From: an uncultured Ignavibacteriota bacterium | GTDB lineage: Bacteria; Bacteroidota; Ignavibacteria; Palsa-1295 | Length of the DNA: 64,000 nt | Assembly (NCBI GenBank): GCA_903900335.1 | Contig: CAIUMP010000056.1 | Span: forward strand, 157,020 to 221,019 | Direction of reading: 5' to 3' | Part shown: piece after piece, positions 4,742 to 31,072 of the stretch | Layout: each line of letters begins with the position of its first letter | Numbering within the stretch: position 1 is the first letter of the stretch | Notes under the pieces: model-generated | What the model was told of the DNA's origin: nothing | Seen by the model: only the letters and a program-made list of their open reading frames with translations | Database searches by the model: none | Translations under genes and position numbers: made by a program

Positions 4742-4820
4742 GATGGTATCATGCGTGGGTCGGGCGTCCTCGCCCGACCCACCGCTTGAACTGTTTTTCA
4801 GCCGAACCGTTTTACATGAT

Positions 4821-5069
4821 ATGATTCAGACCCAGGTTAGCCTTTCCGAGAACACAGACGCACTTCTCGCCTCTTTTGCGCTTCGACAGGGCAAGAAAAA
4901 GGAAGAAATTATCGTCGAGGCTGTGGAGGCATTTGTCCATCCGCAGCTTACTCGCGAAGAGATTCTCGCGATGCGACGTCAGGCGCGCGGGATGTGGAAG
5001 GACCGGTCTGACTTGCCCGATTTCGACGCGTTGCGCCGGTCATCTGGAGAGGCACAATTCCGGTCCTAA
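4821..5069 (+). CDS. ribbon-helix-helix (CopG/Arc-like) antitoxin-like protein, 82 aa
   Basis: The only plausible part of track ORF 4617..5069 starts at the ATG at 4821: MIQTQVSLSENTDALLASFALRQGKKKEEIIVEAVEAFV... This is a short N-terminal beta-strand plus two helices, typical of RHH DNA-binding antitoxins. The C-terminal '...GMWKDRSDLPDFDALRRS' tail resembles VapB-type antitoxin tails as I recall them. The upstream 68 codons of the ORF overlap the AKR remnant in another frame. Confidence 0.45.
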   Translation: MIQTQVSLSENTDALLASFALRQGKKKEEIIVEAVEAFVHPQLTREEILAMRRQARGMWKDRSDLPDFDALRRSSGEAQFRS

Positions 5070-5134
5070 TTCGATCGAAATGTTTACCAGATTCTGAATG
5101 TCACTATGTGTCCAACAGCAGTCCCGACAACAAG

Positions 5135-6196
5135 ATGAGAAATTCTAAGAAGATATTTATTTGCTACTCACATCAGGATCAAAAGTGGCTCAAATGGCTT
5201 GATCCGATCTTAAAGCCACTCATCAGAGAGGGCACGGTTACTGAATGGAGTGACAGAAAAATCGATCCCGGCAAAAAGTGGAAGGAAGAGATTCGCGAGG
5301 CGCTTAGAACATCAGGAATTGCGATATTGATTATTAGCCAAGACTTCTTGGCATCGGATTTTATTTTCGAAAACGAACTCCCACCAATACTAGAGGCCGA
5401 GCAAGAGGAAGGATTAAGATTGCTTTGCATTTACGTTCGGCCCTGTGACATCGCTAGCTTCCCCCGTCTACTGGATTTTCAAGCTGTTAACGATCCCCAA
5501 AAACCTCTGGCTGAACTCGCCATCCCAGCGAGAGATCGAGTGGGCATTGTCATCGCAGAGAATATTAGGCAACATCAGACGTGGAAGACTGCGGGAGATC
5601 AAATTGAGAAGATATCGAAGGATGTCCCTGAAGGAACCGACGGGCTGGAGGATGATAAAGGCTTTTTAGAATACAAGGAGGACTCATTCGAGGCGATGAC
5701 AGAAATGAATGAGGTGATGGTTCGCATTGCGGAACTCACTTCGAAAGTCGGCCAAAAAGTAAATGTCCGTCAAGAGAGCCTCAATAGCATGATCACCAAG
5801 AAGGAAGATAACGTGAAATTGGCGATAAGTATTGTCAATGCTACCGCAATGGATGTTAACGAGTATTCGGAGCAACTTGAAAAGGAAGTCCCAATTCTGG
5901 AATCCAAAGCCGCGGCAATGCACGACAATCTCGTTCCATGGCTACGATGGAGACGAGAGGCAGGACACACAACCGACAATGACAGCTTTGGAAGTTCGGT
6001 GCTATCAATGATTCAAGCGGTCGAGCCTTCAATACTGCAAATGGAATCGTTTAGAGATTCAATGCTTGGGATGAAAGGAGCTTCGAAACCTTTGAATAAT
6101 GCCGTAGTTCGAGCGAGAATAATACTTGATCGCTTAATAGGTACCATGAAGAAGATTCAGACGGATTCGAAAGAGTATCTAACAATTCTAAATTAG
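5135..6196 (+). CDS. TIR-domain protein with an uncharacterised ~210-aa C-terminal domain
   Basis: The N-terminal ~140 aa hold a canonical bacterial TIR domain: KIFICYSHQDQKWLKWL...GTVTEWSDRKIDPGKKWKEEIREAL..SGIAILIISQDFLASDFIFENELPPILE. The rest (…DDKGFLEYKEDSFEAMTEMNEVMVRIAELTSK… to the end) is helix-rich with no motif I recognise. The track ORF starts at a GTG at 5108. The ATG at 5135 immediately precedes the TIR core. The gene is visibly AT-richer than the flanks. Confidence 0.8.
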   Translation: MRNSKKIFICYSHQDQKWLKWLDPILKPLIREGTVTEWSDRKIDPGKKWKEEIREALRTSGIAILIISQDFLASDFIFENELPPILEAEQEEGLRLLCIYVRPCDIASFPRLLDFQAVNDPQKPLAELAIPARDRVGIVIAENIRQHQTWKTAGDQIEKISKDVPEGTDGLEDDKGFLEYKEDSFEAMTEMNEVMVRIAELTSKVGQKVNVRQESLNSMITKKEDNVKLAISIVNATAMDVNEYSEQLEKEVPILESKAAAMHDNLVPWLRWRREAGHTTDNDSFGSSVLSMIQAVEPSILQMESFRDSMLGMKGASKPLNNAVVRARIILDRLIGTMKKIQTDSKEYLTILN

Positions 6197-26073: not shown

Positions 26074-27381
26074 CTACCGCCTGCCAATCCCGTAATAGGT
26101 AAACCCATACTCCCGCATGCGCTCGGGATCGTAGATATTGCGGCCATCGAAGACGACCTTATCTCGCAATTTCGACGAGATCGACTCAAAGTTCGGGTTG
26201 CGGAATTCATTCCACTCTGTAACCACGACAAGCGCGTCACTGTCTTCGAGCGCATCCATGTTCTTGCGGTAGTACTTCAAATTGGCACTCTCTGGTAGAA
26301 CCGTTTTCATTGGTGTGATCGCCGCAGGGTCACTTGCGTGAATGATGGCTCCGCGTGCTATGAGCCCAGTAATGATCTCTATCGCTGGTGCCTCACGAAT
26401 ATCATCTGTGCGTGGCTTAAAGGAGAGTCCCCAGACTGTGAATACCTTACCGGAAACATTGCCTTCGTAGTGGGCTAAGATCTTATCCAGCAGCTTTGTC
26501 TTTTGTCTGTCGTTGACATCCTGCACAGCACGGAGAATGGAGAAATCATGACCAAACTCGGCCGCGGTCGAAATAAGCGCCTTGATGTCCTTCGGGAAGC
26601 AACTTCCACCGAATCCAACACCAGGAAAGAGAAACTGCGGACCGATGCGTCCATCCGAACCAATACCTACGCGCACACTATCGACATCGGCGCCGACGAG
26701 ATCGCAGAGATTTGCAATCTCATTCATAAAACTGATCTTCGTTGCGAGCATCGAGTTCGCAGCATACTTCGTGAGCTCCGAACTGCGCTCGTCCATGATG
26801 AAGATCGGATTTCCTGTGCGAACGAACGGCTCATACAGCTCCTTCATCGTCTCGATCGCACCCGCATCACGCGAGCCAACCACGATGCGATCCGGCTTCA
26901 TAAAATCCTGAACGGCAGCGCCTTCTTTGAGAAATTCCGGATTGGATACGACCTGAACCGGGATCTTCGTCTCCGCTTCGAAAATGGCTCGAACACGGTC
27001 CGCCGTACCAACCGGCACCGTGGATTTATTGACAACAACCTTCGGCGTCGTCATGATCTTGGCGATCTGCTTCGAGGTTTCGAGGACCATTGAGAGATCA
27101 GCAGCGCCATCCATGCCGGGTGGAGTGGGCAAGGCCAGGAAGATCACTTCAGCGCTATCAACGGCCTCTTTGAGATCGAGCGTAAAACGAAGGCGTCCCT
27201 CGGCAACGTTGAACTTCACGATCTCTTCCAGACCTGGCTCGAAAATTGGGATGATACCCTTTCGAAGATTTTCGATCTTCTCGGGCACAATATCCATGCA
27301 GAGGACCTGATTCCCCGTTTCGGCAAATCCGGCTCCGGTAACGAGACCTACGTAGCCTGTTCCAATAATTGCTATGTTCAC
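26074..27381 (-). CDS. ugd: UDP-glucose 6-dehydrogenase (nucleotide-sugar dehydrogenase family)
   Basis: The N-terminal Rossmann motif is MNIAIIGTGYVGLVTGAGFAETG. The catalytic-region motif GGSCFPKDI and the 435-aa length are typical of Ugd and relatives. Confidence 0.8.
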   Translation of the reverse strand: MNIAIIGTGYVGLVTGAGFAETGNQVLCMDIVPEKIENLRKGIIPIFEPGLEEIVKFNVAEGRLRFTLDLKEAVDSAEVIFLALPTPPGMDGAADLSMVLETSKQIAKIMTTPKVVVNKSTVPVGTADRVRAIFEAETKIPVQVVSNPEFLKEGAAVQDFMKPDRIVVGSRDAGAIETMKELYEPFVRTGNPIFIMDERSSELTKYAANSMLATKISFMNEIANLCDLVGADVDSVRVGIGSDGRIGPQFLFPGVGFGGSCFPKDIKALISTAAEFGHDFSILRAVQDVNDRQKTKLLDKILAHYEGNVSGKVFTVWGLSFKPRTDDIREAPAIEIITGLIARGAIIHASDPAAITPMKTVLPESANLKYYRKNMDALEDSDALVVVTEWNEFRNPNFESISSKLRDKVVFDGRNIYDPERMREYGFTYYGIGRR

Positions 27382-27543
27382 GCTGTGGCTTAAAAAGAGG
27401 TTTTGATTCGTTGAGTCACGCAGCTTAGAAGTTGCGAGTACGAGCCCTGTAAAACATCACGAACGAAGTATTGCTCCCCGTTAGGTGCCCGTCAGTCAAG
27501 ATTCATGAGCATTCAGAATTCTCCACGCGCTTCTCTTCTATGC

Positions 27544-27782
27544 TTCTTTTTAAATAGAGATTTAAATACTAATAATTGATTTAAAGGGTGTGGACATGTG
27601 GAGAACACAAACCTCGTTCACGAATCACCGTGATAGACCGCATCTCGCTTCGCGTTCACATCTTATCCATCTGTTGGCTAACATGTGGCTAACTGGTGTT
27701 AGACGAACAGTCCACATATCCCTCCACAGTCTTCCTGTGGTCTGGCTTCCTCTATCCACAGCTTGTGATTTCTTATCCAGAC
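27544..27782. other. predicted chromosomal replication origin (oriC): AT-rich DNA-unwinding element plus a DnaA-box cluster
   Basis: A ~43-nt AT-rich stretch (ttctttttaaatagagatttaaatactaataattgatttaaag) lies in an otherwise GC-rich genome. It is followed within ~200 nt by at least 5 sites with 8/9 match to TTATCCACA in either orientation. These are tgtggagaa, TTATCCATC at 27663, tgtggctaa at 27685, CTATCCACA at 27752 and TTATCCAGA at 27772. Weaker sites lie among them. The region is ~120 nt from the duplicated dnaA 3' end. Confidence 0.6.
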
Positions 27783-27842
27783 GTTAGTGAGGAAAGGTTT
27801 TTGAAGTGGCGAGTTATCATGCAGAGTATGGTATAACTATTT

Positions 27843-27875
27843 AAAACTAAAAAGCCGCGGTACTCCAGCGGCTTT
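27843..27875 (-). terminator. intrinsic terminator (minus strand), probably the original dnaA terminator
   Basis: The minus strand reads AAAGCCGC-tggagtacc-GCGGCTTT followed by TTAGTTTTAAA. This is an 8-bp GC-rich stem with a 9-nt loop and a T-rich tail. It lies immediately downstream of the dnaA 3'-end duplicate at 27902..28023. Confidence 0.55.
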
Positions 27876-27901
27876 CGTTAGGTATTCGAGCTGTTATTGT
27901 G

Positions 27902-28023
27902 TCACTGCATCATATCAAACTGCCTCCGCAGCTCATCTATCTTCGTCAGCAGCGCCGGGTTGTGCTTCATGTCGTCGAGCACGGTTTGCACGGCGTGGAT
28001 GACGGTGGATTGGTCGCGTCCGC
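27902..28023 (-). pseudogene. duplicated 3' end of dnaA (last ~40 codons plus stop), copy 1 of a ~120-nt diverged direct repeat
   Basis: Its minus-strand translation …SGRDQSTVIHAVQTVLDDMKHNPALLTKIDELRRQFDMMQ* is identical over the last 36 residues to the true dnaA C-terminus at 28767... There are ~8 nucleotide differences versus copy 2 (28764..28885). There is no upstream gene body, and it abuts the stop of the DUF5615 gene. Confidence 0.65.
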
Positions 28024-28359
28024 TCAAATGAACTCAACCCTTCCCCTCATCTCCTCCACCGAATTGTTGCCATGAACGGATGCGCATTCCATGATGATTG
28101 CGCCGAGAGAATGTCCTTCCTGTTTGCAGTAGATTAAGCCGGGATGATCCGGGTTGCGAGAGGCGATGCGGAGGAAATCGTCATCGTGGGTAATGAGCAC
28201 ACGGCCTTCTCTCGTTGCATATTCCCACTGTTTCTCATCTGGCGTACCTCGCAGTTTGACTGCTTTAGAAACAGTAATATCAATTCCCATCGCTTCGAGT
28301 GCTTTGGCGATTCGGGAATTTACACTCTCATCCAGGTGGAATCGAATCTTCTCGCTCAT
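28024..28359 (-). CDS. DUF5615-family (PIN-like, toxin-like) protein
   Basis: The 111-aa product is MSEKIRFHLDESVNSRIAKALEAMGIDITV…VLITHDDDFLRIASRNPDHPGLIYCKQ…. This is the typical partner of DUF433 proteins. It is AT-rich relative to the flanks. Confidence 0.6.
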   Translation of the reverse strand: MSEKIRFHLDESVNSRIAKALEAMGIDITVSKAVKLRGTPDEKQWEYATREGRVLITHDDDFLRIASRNPDHPGLIYCKQEGHSLGAIIMECASVHGNNSVEEMRGRVEFI

Positions 28360-28364
28360 GCGAC

Positions 28365-28661
28365 TTACGCAACGTATTTCCGATTGTCGGTTGCTTCGTA
28401 CTGCTTCCGGAATTCTGCAACAAAGCGAGCATCATCATCTATACCCTGATCTATCTCGGTCTTATGATCGTAATAGTATGTCATGGCAGCATAGACATCG
28501 GCGAGAGATAAGTCGAAATCGCCCGCGATGAGTTCAAGCTCCATTCCATTGCGCAGGTGTTTGATCACAACATCTTTCACAGTGATTCGTGTACCGGCAA
28601 TGCGAGGTCGTCCAAAGGCGATCTCCTTGTCGGTGACAATATGTTGCAGCGATGATTGCAT
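28365..28661 (-). CDS. DUF433-domain protein (antitoxin-like partner of DUF5615)
   Basis: The Met-initiated product (ATG at 28661) is MQSSLQHIVTDKEIAFGRPRIAGTRITVKDVVIKHLRNGMELELIAGDFDLSLADVYAAMTYYYDH…, which carries the DUF433 signature. It lies 5 nt upstream of the DUF5615 gene. The longer track ORF start (28739) runs into the dnaA repeat. Confidence 0.65.
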   Translation of the reverse strand: MQSSLQHIVTDKEIAFGRPRIAGTRITVKDVVIKHLRNGMELELIAGDFDLSLADVYAAMTYYYDHKTEIDQGIDDDARFVAEFRKQYEATDNRKYVA

Positions 28662-28763
28662 GTAATTGTAACGCCCTCGTGTAACGGAAAGTTTTGGCTT
28701 AACGTAATGTCGAGCGAGGACGCTCGACCTACAATTCACAAGAAGCAGTCGGCTCGTGATTCG

Positions 28764-28885
28764 ATCTCACTGCATCATATCAAACTGCCTCCGCAACTCA
28801 TCGATCTTCGTGAGCAGCGCCGGGTTGTGCTTCATGTCGTCGAGGACGGTTTGCACGGCGTGGATGACGGTGGAGTGATCGCGGC
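28764..28885. repeat. copy 2 of the ~120-nt dnaA-3' direct repeat (this copy is the functional end of dnaA)
   Basis: tcactgcatcatatcaaactgcctccgca[a/g]ctcatc[g/t]atcttcgt[g/c]agcagcgccgggttgtgcttcatgtcgtcgag[g/c]acggtttgcacggcgtggatgacggtgga… matches 27902..28023. Both copies start exactly at the dnaA stop codon. Confidence 0.65.
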
Positions 28886-30629
28886 CACCGAAGTGAATAC
28901 CGATGGTCTTGAGCGAGTTGTTGGTCAGCTCCTTCGCGAGGAACATGGCCACCTGCCGGGCTTCCACTACTTCCTGCTTGCGCGTCTTGGCGCGAAGCAG
29001 ATCTTCTTCAATGCCAAACTTGCGCGAGACGGTCCGCTGTATCGTTTCGATAGTTAGGATCGGCGCCGAGCGTTTCGCAACCTTACGGAGCACTTCCTTT
29101 GCTATCTCCAGTGTCGGTGCGTTGCCCTCAAGCGATGCTGTGGCCAACAGAGAGATCAGGCATCCTTCGAGTTCGCGGATGTTCGTCGTGATGTTCGTCG
29201 CGATGAATTCGATCACGTCGCTGGAAAGCTCGATGCCGTCGGAGATGGCTTTGTGACGGAGAATTGCAATACGCGTTTCTAAGTCCGGTGCGCCGATGTC
29301 TGCTGTTAGGCCCCACTGCAAGCGGTTCAGTAGGCGGTCGTCAATGTCCTTCAGCTCTTTCGGTGCGCGGTCGCAGGTCAGAATTATCTGCTTGCCAAGT
29401 TCGCGAAGCGCATTGAACGTGTGGAAGAAAATATCCTGCGTCTTCTCCTTGCCGGCAAAGAACTGCACGTCATCAATGATGAGGACATCAATAGAGCGAT
29501 AGAGACTCTGGAATTCATTGATCCGGTCGTTCTGAATGGCATCCACGAATTCGACAGTGAATCTGTCGCTGGATGTATAAAGGACTCTGGCTCCGGAGAA
29601 CTTCTGCAGCACGGCATTTCCCACTGCCTGGATCACGTGTGTTTTTCCGAGACCCACATTGCCGTAGATTACCAGCGGATTGTAGCGCGTTCCACCAGGA
29701 TTATTTGCAACTGCCATCGCTGCAGCATAGGCAAGCTTGTTCGATTCACCTCGGATGAAGGTGTCGAAGGTGTATCGCGGATTCAGATTGGGCTCGATCG
29801 GCTGGCGCTTTTGCTGGGAGGCGGAAGCGCCATTCTGCTGTGGCTGCTGCGGTACAGCGCGTGATGCGAACGGCGAAGGTATCGCAGGCGCATAGGGCGA
29901 AGGCTGCGAACCAAACGAAGGAGAGTTGAATGGCTGCGCACCCGTGCGTTGTGAATGATGCGGCGAAGAAGCGAGAACGTTTGTCGGTCGTTCAGTCACG
30001 ACCGGAGCAGCAGATGGAACCGGCACAACTGGCGAAGGCGCGGCCTCCAGTTTCGTGTTCACCGATTGGATCTCGCTCGCGCTATCAAAGCGGAACTGGG
30101 CGGCGGCACCAAGAACATCCTGCAGTGCCTTTTCGAGTAACGACTGGTAATGCTCGGTGATCCACTCGCAGAAGAAATTGCTGGGCACACGAAGCGTGAT
30201 CTCCGAGCCTTCCAAGGCCGTGGCTTCCAGCGGTTCGAACCACGTGCGCATCGTCTGCGCGCTGAGTTGAGGGCGAATAAGCTCCAGGCATCGCTTCCAG
30301 ATCCGTTCGGCAGCAAGGCGCAAGTCAGATGTCGATCGATCGCTTTCCGCGACGACCGACGATTCCTCTTTTCCAGTCAAAGGGCTGGGCCTCTGCAGTT
30401 CACTTTCCACGTTGCTTTCTTCAGGCTCGAACATCGCGCCGGTCTTTGGTATGGCATTCGTTGTGCGATGCCCAATGCGATTGCCACTCGAACGACTGAG
30501 CGCAGGGCTTGGTGCAAGCGATTGCTCCATTCCTCGTCCGCTCAGGCGTGTTATCGGCGACTCTGCGATTTCAATTTCAAGTTCGGAGAACTCTGTTCTC
30601 GTCATAATTTCTGACAAACGGAAGAACAC
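28767..30629 (-). CDS. dnaA: chromosomal replication initiator DnaA
   Basis: It has the AAA+ Walker A motif GNVGLGKTHV, the box VII/sensor regions, and the C-terminal DNA-binding domain …VVEARQVAMFLAKELTNNSLKTIGIHFGGRDHSTVIHAV…. The N-terminal domain I (ERIWKRCLELIRPQL…) begins ~100 aa after the first ATG. The true start may be an internal Met (aa 9, 34 or 66). A long Pro/Gln-rich domain II linker is present. Confidence 0.9.
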   Translation of the reverse strand: MFFRLSEIMTRTEFSELEIEIAESPITRLSGRGMEQSLAPSPALSRSSGNRIGHRTTNAIPKTGAMFEPEESNVESELQRPSPLTGKEESSVVAESDRSTSDLRLAAERIWKRCLELIRPQLSAQTMRTWFEPLEATALEGSEITLRVPSNFFCEWITEHYQSLLEKALQDVLGAAAQFRFDSASEIQSVNTKLEAAPSPVVPVPSAAPVVTERPTNVLASSPHHSQRTGAQPFNSPSFGSQPSPYAPAIPSPFASRAVPQQPQQNGASASQQKRQPIEPNLNPRYTFDTFIRGESNKLAYAAAMAVANNPGGTRYNPLVIYGNVGLGKTHVIQAVGNAVLQKFSGARVLYTSSDRFTVEFVDAIQNDRINEFQSLYRSIDVLIIDDVQFFAGKEKTQDIFFHTFNALRELGKQIILTCDRAPKELKDIDDRLLNRLQWGLTADIGAPDLETRIAILRHKAISDGIELSSDVIEFIATNITTNIRELEGCLISLLATASLEGNAPTLEIAKEVLRKVAKRSAPILTIETIQRTVSRKFGIEEDLLRAKTRKQEVVEARQVAMFLAKELTNNSLKTIGIHFGGRDHSTVIHAVQTVLDDMKHNPALLTKIDELRRQFDMMQ

Positions 30630-30929
30630 CCGCCGTGACGAGTCACGTTCGGTGGTAAAAAATACGATTCAGGTTTCAGGACAACAGTGCGCATGCTCAG
30701 TGTTCGCGGATCGTGATCCCAGAAAGTGTGGTGGCGATGATCGCATTCATGCGCGCCAGCTCTGCTTTCCTTTCGCCGCGAATTCCGAGGTTTCGCTTCG
30801 TCACAAAGATGCACACACCGTGGGCTAACTACTACACCTAGCGTACGTGTTCGTTATGCATTAAAAGCACAACGGTAGTTCAAAACATTTTGGATTACGT
30901 TCCAGGTCGCGAAGTAGAATCAAAATTAC

Positions 30930-30938
30930 TTATCCACA
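30930..30938 (+). promoter_or_regulatory. perfect DnaA box (TTATCCACA) in the dnaA upstream region
   Basis: It is an exact 9/9 consensus match ~300 nt upstream of the dnaA start, consistent with dnaA autoregulation and/or a second box cluster. Confidence 0.5.
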
Positions 30939-31072
30939 TTCTGCAAACAGGATTTCTCATCGCACTCGTGTTGCAGTATAACACATTCCAAATTCGAAAG
31001 CAAGAGCTAAAGTGAAATTTTTGTATGGAATATTTTCGCATAGCGCGAACGGAAATTGCAACTCGTGAAAAT

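What the first reader, a model, noticed from the sequence alone, without database searches (positions are those of the whole stretch)
27843..28885. DUF433/DUF5615 TA-like cassette inserted between dnaA and oriC, bracketed by a diverged ~120-nt direct repeat of the dnaA 3' end; the original dnaA terminator is displaced
The last ~120 nt of dnaA, ending exactly at its stop codon, occur twice. One copy is the true gene end at 28764..28885. The other is an orphan copy at 27902..28023 that still encodes the final 36 DnaA residues identically and is followed by a textbook intrinsic terminator (27843..27875). Between the copies sit only the AT-rich DUF433 and DUF5615 genes, which form a known putative TA pair. 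The copies differ at ~8 positions. That pattern fits site-specific integration of an element carrying its own version of the target's 3' end (as with integrative elements targeting gene 3' ends) better than an in-situ duplication. No integrase remains. An addiction-type module sitting between the initiator gene and the origin is a striking location.
Basis: seen in the sequence. Interest (0 to 1): 0.65.

Follow-up and report, generated by a model that had tools for sequence, protein, structure and literature searches.

The report
Toxin-antitoxin cassette spliced behind dnaA
A two-gene toxin-antitoxin-like cassette really was inserted between the replication initiator gene dnaA and its terminator and origin, and it brought a second, slightly different copy of the gene's last 122 bases, but this looks like a one-off recombination scar rather than a new kind of mobile element.

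Summary
In this Kapaibacterium-like (Ignavibacteriota) genome the last 122 nt of dnaA occur twice. An orphan copy is at 27902-28023. The copies differ at 8 of 122 positions.

Between them lie a 105-nt leader with a GC-rich palindrome, a DUF433 gene and a DUF5615 (PIN-like) gene. The orphan is followed by an intrinsic terminator. A conserved DnaA-box and AT-rich region follows, at the point where GC skew changes sign.

Four relatives have the empty site: dnaA, terminator, origin-like region, UDP-glucose dehydrogenase. Independent assemblies reproduce the structure exactly.

Seven of the eight differences are at third codon positions. Polarised with the closest relative, five synonymous changes sit on the live copy and two on the orphan. 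The two copies are therefore alleles from different lineages, not an in-situ duplication.

No integrase is present. None of 80 relatives duplicates its dnaA end. The nearest cassettes, between an epimerase gene and serS, have no flanking repeats. The orphan starts exactly at the toxin's stop codon, at a TTCAyTT microhomology.

The best fit is homology-facilitated illegitimate recombination with DNA from a related bacterium. Site-specific integration is not excluded. Interest is modest.

The parts
28767..30605 (-). dnaA, 612 aa from the ATG that matches relatives' MTRTEF start. An upstream GTG at 30629 would give 620 aa.
   Evidence: Pfam DnaA_N, Bac_DnaA and Bac_DnaA_C. Gene callers give 587 or 612 aa.
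28767..28888 (-). Live copy of the repeat: the last 122 nt of dnaA including the stop codon. It carries 5 lineage-specific synonymous changes.
28708..28729 (.). GC-rich palindrome GTCGAGCG-AGGA-CGCTCGAC, about 40 nt after the live dnaA stop, with no U-tract. The same 22-mer follows dnaA in the closest relative L084, with the loop flipped relative to dnaA.
28662..28703 (-). The cassette's own upstream region, with the motif ACAACTTTCC conserved before the DUF433 start in homologous cassettes. Probably promoter or operator (inferred).
28365..28661 (-). DUF433 (COG2442) predicted antitoxin, 98 aa.
   Evidence: PF04255 at 4e-17. Weak match to PDB 2GA1. Start as in homologs.
28024..28359 (-). DUF5615 (COG4634-type, Mut7-C/PIN-like) predicted toxin, 111 aa. 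Full length, ending GRVEFI* like its homologs.
   Evidence: PF18480 at 4e-17. Alignment A1 shows invariant D10, E11, D41, D59 and D61.
28024..28033 (-). Joint between the cassette and the orphan copy. The toxin's GAGTTCATTTGA meets dnaA's ATTCACTTCGG at the microhomology TTCAyTT. The toxin's TGA overlaps a TTG that opens the orphan reading frame.
27902..28023 (-). Orphan copy of the dnaA 3' end. It has 2 own changes, one of them His to Gln in the DHSTV motif. It has no start of its own other than the overlapping TTG.
   Evidence: TIGR00362 matches only positions 402-436 of the profile.
27843..27875 (-). Displaced intrinsic terminator, 27 nt after the orphan stop.
   Evidence: Fold. Equivalent terminators follow dnaA in L093, L006, L009 and L010.
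27400..27842 (.). Origin-like region. Four near-consensus DnaA boxes at 27597-27605, 27684-27692, 27752-27760 and 27773-27781, and an AT-rich stretch at 27540-27590. Conserved in six relatives.
   Evidence: Box cluster, Poisson P about 3e-8. Alignment A2. GC-skew sign change at 26-30 kb.
26074..27381 (-). UDP-glucose 6-dehydrogenase gene (UGDH), the conserved neighbour on the far side of the origin-like region.

Best explanation
The ancestral arrangement was dnaA, intrinsic terminator, origin-like region, UGDH. DNA from a related Kapaibacterium-like lineage carried a dnaA 3' end, a 105-nt leader with a palindrome, and a DUF433/DUF5615 toxin-antitoxin-like pair. It recombined with this chromosome.

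One crossover was homologous, within dnaA. The other was an illegitimate joint at the 7-nt microhomology TTCAyTT. That joint links the last codons of the toxin gene to a point about 125 nt before the resident dnaA stop. This is homology-facilitated illegitimate recombination.

The result is a live dnaA with an imported, protein-identical 3' end, the cassette, and a stranded copy of the last 122 nt still attached to the terminator and origin. Which of the two alleles is the imported one cannot be settled. The mirror-image event, with the origin side imported, gives the same product.

Inferred consequences, not shown:
- The cassette has its own upstream motif and now ends at the old dnaA terminator.
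- dnaA may read through the U-less palindrome into the cassette.
- The 93%-identical direct repeats allow RecA-mediated deletion that would restore an intact dnaA plus terminator. An addiction-type pair would select against that loss.
For: - Empty sites exist in relatives: dnaA stop, then a terminator within 6-70 nt, then the homologous DnaA-box/AT-rich region, then UGDH.
- Seven of 8 differences between the copies are at codon position 3 and the eighth is a synonymous first-position change (P about 0.003).
- Polarised with L084, 5 synonymous changes fall on the live copy and 2 on the orphan. This is unlikely for copies ageing in one genome (P about 0.004).
- The two copies share 8 states against L084, so the donor was a close relative.
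- The imported flank carries the same 22-nt palindrome that follows dnaA in the chromosome of L084. It therefore looks like chromosomal context, not an element's attachment site.
- The toxin is full length and the orphan starts at its stop codon, at a microhomology.
- No integrase gene was called within about 6 kb.
- None of 80 relatives has a dnaA-end duplication.
- Homologous cassettes elsewhere lack flanking repeats.
- The mechanism as defined in PMC3240628 has one homologous end and one illegitimate end.
Against: - No donor arrangement (dnaA, palindrome, cassette, without duplication) was found.
- The L084 contig ends 147 nt after dnaA, so what follows its palindrome is unknown.
- The homologous crossover inside dnaA could not be located, because no sister genome exists in the collections. 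The next DnaA is 84% identical.
- The microhomology matches at only 6 of 7 positions and could be chance. A 7-bp overlap is also the size of a tyrosine-recombinase core.
- The polarisation rests on one outgroup and 7 sites.
- Natural competence of this organism is unknown.
Confidence: 0.5

Rival explanations
1. Site-specific integration. A small integrative element, or the remnant of a larger island, has an attachment site that mimics the dnaA 3' end. A tyrosine or serine recombinase supplied in cis (since deleted) or in trans inserted it. The crossover was at the TTCAyTT core, and the element's copy now completes dnaA.
For: Direct repeats made of a gene's 3' end, with the element-borne copy restoring the gene, are the classic signature of such elements. 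The repeat runs exactly from the joint to the stop codon. The live copy carries the lineage-specific synonymous changes across its whole length.
Against: - No recombinase gene was called within about 6 kb.
- None of 80 relatives shows use of this site.
- The nearest cassettes sit elsewhere without repeats.
- No relatives were found on viral contigs, and only one distant plasmid hit.
- The supposed arm of the attachment site would be the conserved coding end of the toxin gene.
- The imported flank resembles a relative's chromosomal dnaA flank.
Confidence: 0.22
2. In-situ event. The cassette was inserted by some illegitimate process that duplicated 122 nt of the resident dnaA, and the two copies then diverged within this genome.
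For: This needs only one genome. The orphan carries a non-synonymous change in a conserved DNA-contact motif, as a decaying copy would.
Against: A freely drifting orphan should change about four times as often as the synonymous sites of the live copy. The observed ratio is 2 to 5, and nearly all differences are synonymous.
Confidence: 0.1
3. The orphan is a functional part of a three-gene unit. A 41-residue DnaA C-terminal peptide is translated from the TTG that overlaps the toxin's TGA, or the orphan acts as an RNA element, linking the cassette to replication initiation.
For: The frame is intact and there is a 4-nt TTGA overlap typical of translational coupling. The orphan has changed little.
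Against: An intact frame is expected after only two changes. One change hits the DHSTV motif. No homologous cassette carries such a third gene. There is no Rfam match.
Confidence: 0.05
4. Assembly artefact caused by a repeat.
For: One short-k assembly breaks inside the repeat.
Against: The longest identical stretch is 32 nt and the copies differ at 8 sites. Two assemblers and several samples give the identical 7 kb.
Confidence: 0.02

Closest known systems
DUF433 (COG2442) antitoxin with COG4634/DUF5615 or PIN_10 Mut7-C-group PIN-like toxin, a predicted type II toxin-antitoxin pair (PMC2701414, PMC5499597). Many pairs occur in Synechocystis (PMC4963859). M. tuberculosis Rv2018/Rv2019 (VapBC45) is a related pair.
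   Same: Same two Pfam domains, in antitoxin-then-toxin order. Two small co-directional genes 5 nt apart. Conserved acidic residues in the toxin. A conserved upstream motif.
   Different: No member of this exact subfamily has been tested. The model's fold matches only generic alpha/beta folds in the PDB. Here the pair sits between dnaA and the origin.
Homology-facilitated illegitimate recombination (PMC3240628). It has been described in naturally competent bacteria and in E. coli conjugation.
   Same: One end lies in homology and the other at a few bases of microhomology. Foreign DNA is added next to the anchor. The donor is related.
   Different: This is a natural footprint inferred from sequence, not an observed event. 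It produced a 122-nt duplication of the recipient. The homologous crossover is not mapped.
Integrative elements that target gene 3' ends and carry a replacement end, such as tRNA and tmRNA islands, or SCCmec at the rlmH 3' end near the staphylococcal origin (from my own knowledge).
   Same: Flanking direct repeats made of the target's 3' end. The gene stays intact. The location is next to the origin.
   Different: No recombinase, no recurrence at this site, only 865 nt of cargo, and one end of the element coincides with a stop codon.

Membership tests
Type II toxin-antitoxin pair, DUF433 / DUF5615 (COG2442 / COG4634) | Antitoxin with a DUF433 domain | tested here: met
   PF04255 at 4.1e-17, full profile 1-56. 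PDB 2GA1 at E = 0.006.
Type II toxin-antitoxin pair, DUF433 / DUF5615 (COG2442 / COG4634) | Toxin with a DUF5615 / Mut7-C-group PIN-like domain | tested here: met
   PF18480 at 4.3e-17. Weaker Mut7-C and PIN_10 hits.
Type II toxin-antitoxin pair, DUF433 / DUF5615 (COG2442 / COG4634) | Two small adjacent co-directional genes that travel together | tested here: met
   5-nt gap in the window. The same pair is found in L085, L086, L088, L089 and L092 in other contexts, a decayed pair in L091, and a pair cut by the contig end in L090.
Type II toxin-antitoxin pair, DUF433 / DUF5615 (COG2442 / COG4634) | Conserved acidic residues expected of a PIN-like active site | tested here: met
   D10, E11, D41, D59 and D61 are invariant in 11 sequences. 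Their assignment to the catalytic site is inference.
Type II toxin-antitoxin pair, DUF433 / DUF5615 (COG2442 / COG4634) | PIN-like fold seen by structure comparison | tested here: inconclusive
Type II toxin-antitoxin pair, DUF433 / DUF5615 (COG2442 / COG4634) | Toxicity that is neutralised by the partner | not testable with these tools
   Needs expression experiments.
Recombinase-driven integrative element at a gene 3' end | Flanking direct repeats derived from the target's 3' end | tested here: met
   122 nt at 93.4% identity, ending at the stop codon.
Recombinase-driven integrative element at a gene 3' end | Integrase or recombinase gene in or beside the element | tested here: not met
   Only DUF433 and DUF5615 lie between the repeats. 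Neighbours within 6 kb include a large 1175-aa protein without Pfam hits, a GyrI-like protein, AnmK, DnaA, UGDH, a G8-domain protein and a secreted protein with a Por tail; in L082 also an unannotated 75-aa ORF.
Recombinase-driven integrative element at a gene 3' end | The same site used repeatedly in other genomes | tested here: not met
   None of 80 loci has a second copy of its own dnaA 3' 200 nt within the flanks held, up to 6 kb each side.
Recombinase-driven integrative element at a gene 3' end | The same element with the same ends found elsewhere | tested here: not met
   The closest cassettes sit between an epimerase gene and serS, or elsewhere, without repeats. None was found on viral contigs.
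Homology-facilitated illegitimate recombination product | One joint at a short microhomology with no extended homology | tested here: met
   TTCAyTT, 6 of 7 matching, at 28024-28033. The toxin is complete up to that point.
Homology-facilitated illegitimate recombination product | The other joint inside a homologous anchor, with donor-type sequence running from it | tested here: inconclusive
   The live 3' end carries 5 lineage-specific synonymous changes. The crossover point cannot be placed without a sister genome.
Homology-facilitated illegitimate recombination product | Donor related to the recipient | tested here: met
   The copies differ at 7 of 120 sites, against 10-13 differences from L084, and they share 8 states against it.
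Chromosomal replication origin next to dnaA | DnaA-box cluster, AT-rich element, GC-skew switch and conservation in relatives | tested here: met

The most novel reading that the evidence does not exclude
The 865-nt unit is a recombinase-independent or trans-mobilised mini-cassette. It homes to the dnaA/origin junction by carrying a dnaA 3' mimic. Its stranded DnaA C-terminal fragment is co-translated through the TTGA overlap as a third component that couples the toxin-antitoxin pair to replication initiation.
Probability: 0.05. Interest if true: 0.75.

Novelty: new member of a known kind. Interest (0 to 1): 0.3.

Why it matters
It is a clean natural footprint of gene gain next to an essential gene. 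The initiator gene stayed intact because the incoming DNA supplied a protein-identical 3' end. The old end and its terminator were stranded 865 nt away.

It shows that the dnaA-origin junction in this poorly known phylum tolerates insertions and collects them repeatedly. It also gives a worked example of telling imported alleles from in-situ duplicates by counting synonymous changes.

It does not reveal a new mechanism or a new class of element.

Tried and rejected
An offset of 862 between the copies gives no alignment. The true offset is 865.
- **Metagenome scan.** A degenerate DDMKHNP pattern returned 54 loci. None encodes DnaA or the cassette.
- **Mobile-element vehicles.** A viral-contig scan with the toxin alignment found nothing. 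A plasmid tblastn found one 41% hit in Crocosphaera.
- **Closest relative L084.** I checked whether its contig end joins contig L092 from the same sample, which carries a DUF433/DUF5615 pair. There is no overlap.
- **Closer empty site through UGDH.** This found L093, a more distant relative with an empty site, but not the continuation of L084.
- **Flanking repeats around homologous cassettes.** None were found.
- **The other palindrome-preceded cassette in the window.** It has no flanking repeats either.
- **Known RNA families.** There is no Rfam match in 27300-29000.
- **NCBIfam and PADLOC.** No hits for either cassette protein.
- **Fold searches of the toxin model.** Only generic alpha/beta folds came up.
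- **Integron cassette idea.** Set aside because no integrase gene is nearby, the pair has its own conserved upstream motif, and the only hairpin is a 22-nt palindrome.
- **Step in divergence along dnaA against L084.** I looked for a step that would mark a crossover. There is only a gradual decline toward the 3' end, which is not interpretable.

Full report
**What is there**

The window comes from a Kapaibacterium-like member of the Ignavibacteriota. The best DnaA matches among species-representative genomes are Kapaibacterium and Ignavibacteriota genomes assembled from metagenomes, at 60-73% identity.

On the minus strand, reading in the dnaA direction, the order is:
- dnaA, 30605 to 28767
- a 105-nt leader
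- a DUF433 gene, 28661 to 28365
- a DUF5615 gene, 28359 to 28024
- a second copy of the last 122 nt of dnaA, 28023 to 27902
- a hairpin with a U-tract, 27875 to 27843
- a non-coding stretch of about 440 nt
- a UDP-glucose 6-dehydrogenase gene (UGDH), 27381 to 26074

**Check of the observation**

With the true offset of 865 they match at 114 of 122 positions. The repeat finder independently reports the pair as 131 nt at 92% identity. The live copy is therefore 28767-28888.

Homology stops sharply at the stop codon on one side. On the other side it fades over about 10 nt. The orphan encodes the last 35 DnaA residues identically. The residue before them is Gln instead of the His of the conserved DHSTV motif.

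The simple terminator scan missed the hairpin because the stem has a bulge. It folds as an 11-pair GC-rich stem followed by UUUUUAGUUUU.

The insert is only mildly AT-shifted, at 48.6% GC against 53.2% for the window.

**Not an artefact**

Two ENA assemblies built with different assemblers are 100% identical to the window over 7 kb. Seven contigs carry the toxin protein.

A Logan assembly of run ERR4195047 starts at window position 27977. That position lies inside the only 32-nt stretch that is identical in both copies. The contig shows the orphan-type bases next to the terminator.

**The non-coding stretch is an origin-like region**

- Four of the twelve near-consensus DnaA boxes in the 64-kb window fall within 185 nt at 27597-27781. 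The Poisson probability is about 3e-8.
- An AT-rich block lies at 27540-27590.
- GC skew changes sign at 26-30 kb.
- The region aligns with the sequence upstream of UGDH in six relatives. Shared blocks include GGGATAAGATGTG, CCACATnTCCACA and the AT-rich block.

**It is an insertion**

In L093, L006, L009 and L010, dnaA is followed within 6-70 nt by a canonical terminator. In L093, L006 and L009 it is then followed by the homologous origin-like region and UGDH, with 590-700 nt between the two genes. None of the relatives carries DUF433 or DUF5615 there.

The junction is variable in other relatives. L002 and L005 have a convergent secreted-protein gene. L003 also has an Mrr-type restriction endonuclease gene and an IS200-like transposase gene. 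The site therefore looks permissive rather than specially targeted.

**The two copies are alleles from different lineages**

Seven of the eight differences are at third codon positions. The eighth is a synonymous first-position Leu change. The binomial P for at least 7 of 8 at position 3 is 0.003.

The closest relative is L084, with 84% DnaA identity and the same upstream gene order. I used it as the outgroup for the 120 homologous nt:
- Five changes, all synonymous, are specific to the live copy.
- Two are specific to the orphan: His to Gln, and ATC to ATA.
- Both copies share eight states against L084.

If the duplication had arisen in place, the unconstrained orphan should have changed about four times as often as the synonymous sites of the live copy. 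Seeing 5 of 7 changes on the live branch has P of about 0.004. One copy therefore came from a related lineage, closer than L084. The sequence cannot say which one.

The orphan is attached to the terminator-plus-origin arrangement that is ancestral in the group. The live end is attached to a 22-nt GC-rich palindrome. The same palindrome also follows dnaA in L084, with its loop flipped relative to dnaA.

**The cassette**

DUF433 (PF04255, 4e-17) and DUF5615 (PF18480, 4e-17, with weak Mut7-C and PIN_10 hits) form the predicted COG2442 / PIN-like toxin-antitoxin pair described by Makarova et al. (PMC2701414) and Matelska et al. (PMC5499597).

The toxin is full length. It keeps invariant Asp and Glu residues and ends GRVEFI* like its homologs. 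Its AlphaFold model is confident (pLDDT 92.9), but it matches only generic alpha/beta folds in the PDB. PIN membership therefore rests on sequence profiles alone.

A motif of about 45 nt (ACAACTTTCC...) precedes the DUF433 start here and in cassettes from other contigs. The pair therefore brings its own upstream signals, and its left edge is near 28703, next to the palindrome.

The closest cassettes, at 73-78% protein identity, lie between an epimerase gene and serS. Others lie in other contexts. None is next to dnaA and none has flanking repeats.

**How it got there**

The orphan begins exactly at the toxin's stop codon. The cassette reads GAGTTCATTTGA and dnaA reads ATTCACTTCGG, so they share TTCAyTT. 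The other observations are:
- No recombinase gene lies within about 6 kb.
- None of 80 related loci duplicates its own dnaA end.
- No related cassette was found on viral contigs, and only one distant plasmid hit.
- The imported flank resembles a relative's chromosomal dnaA flank.

Together these fit homology-facilitated illegitimate recombination best. That mechanism has one crossover in dnaA homology and one illegitimate joint at a microhomology (definition in PMC3240628). I give it about 0.5.

Classic site-specific integration cannot be excluded and gets about 0.2. A 7-bp overlap is also the size of a recombinase core, and repeats that run from the crossover to the gene end are what such elements leave.

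An in-situ duplication (about 0.1) and an artefact (about 0.02) are disfavoured.

**Consequences (inferred, not shown)**

- dnaA now lacks a U-tract terminator and may read through into the cassette.
- Cassette transcripts should end at the old dnaA terminator and carry the orphan as a 3' tail.
- The 93%-identical direct repeats permit deletion that would rebuild an intact dnaA with its terminator. An addiction-type pair would select against that loss.
- The orphan frame opens with a TTG that overlaps the toxin's TGA. After only two changes, an intact frame is expected by default.

**Verdict**

The finding is real and well described apart from a 3-nt coordinate slip. It is a known kind of predicted toxin-antitoxin pair, gained by a known kind of recombination at an insertion-prone site. 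It makes a neat example but is not a new system.

Noticed in passing
window 4758-4779, and 4821-6196: A third copy of the GC-rich palindrome, GGTCGGGCG-TCCT-CGCCCGACC, with a compensatory stem change. It sits just after a stop codon and just before a small ORF with no Pfam match and a TIR-domain protein (PF13676, 1e-14). Both palindromes in the window therefore precede a small accessory cassette, which suggests a REP-like repeat family.
   Followed up: partly
L003 7559-9017; L002 7639-9609; L005 7568-9508: In relatives, the space between dnaA and the origin-like region holds other cargo. L003 has an Mrr-type restriction endonuclease gene and an IS200-like Y1 transposase gene. All three have a convergent Sortilin-like secreted-protein gene with a Por sorting tail.
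   Followed up: partly
window 30800-31070: An AT-rich stretch upstream of dnaA (GC 0.39-0.41) with a perfect DnaA box, TTATCCACA, at 30930-30938. It may be a site of dnaA autoregulation or a second half of the origin.
   Followed up: no
L084 7848-7968: After the palindrome, the closest relative has a very stable long hairpin (GCTACACTTC...GAAGTGTAGC; z-score -5.6 for the 150-nt tail). The contig then ends 147 nt after dnaA, so something hard to assemble follows.
   Followed up: partly
L093 9440-10202: A nucleotidyltransferase/HEPN pair lies a few genes beyond UGDH in a relative that has the empty dnaA site.
   Followed up: no
L091 694-1243: A decayed copy of the same cassette. The DUF433 gene is split into two short ORFs and the DUF5615 gene is truncated to 97 aa.
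   Followed up: no
L092 1-5127: A contig from the same sample as L084 carries a DUF433/DUF5615 pair (59% identity) followed by a run of small ORFs and a DUF2281/PIN pair. It looks like a toxin-antitoxin-rich island.
   Followed up: no
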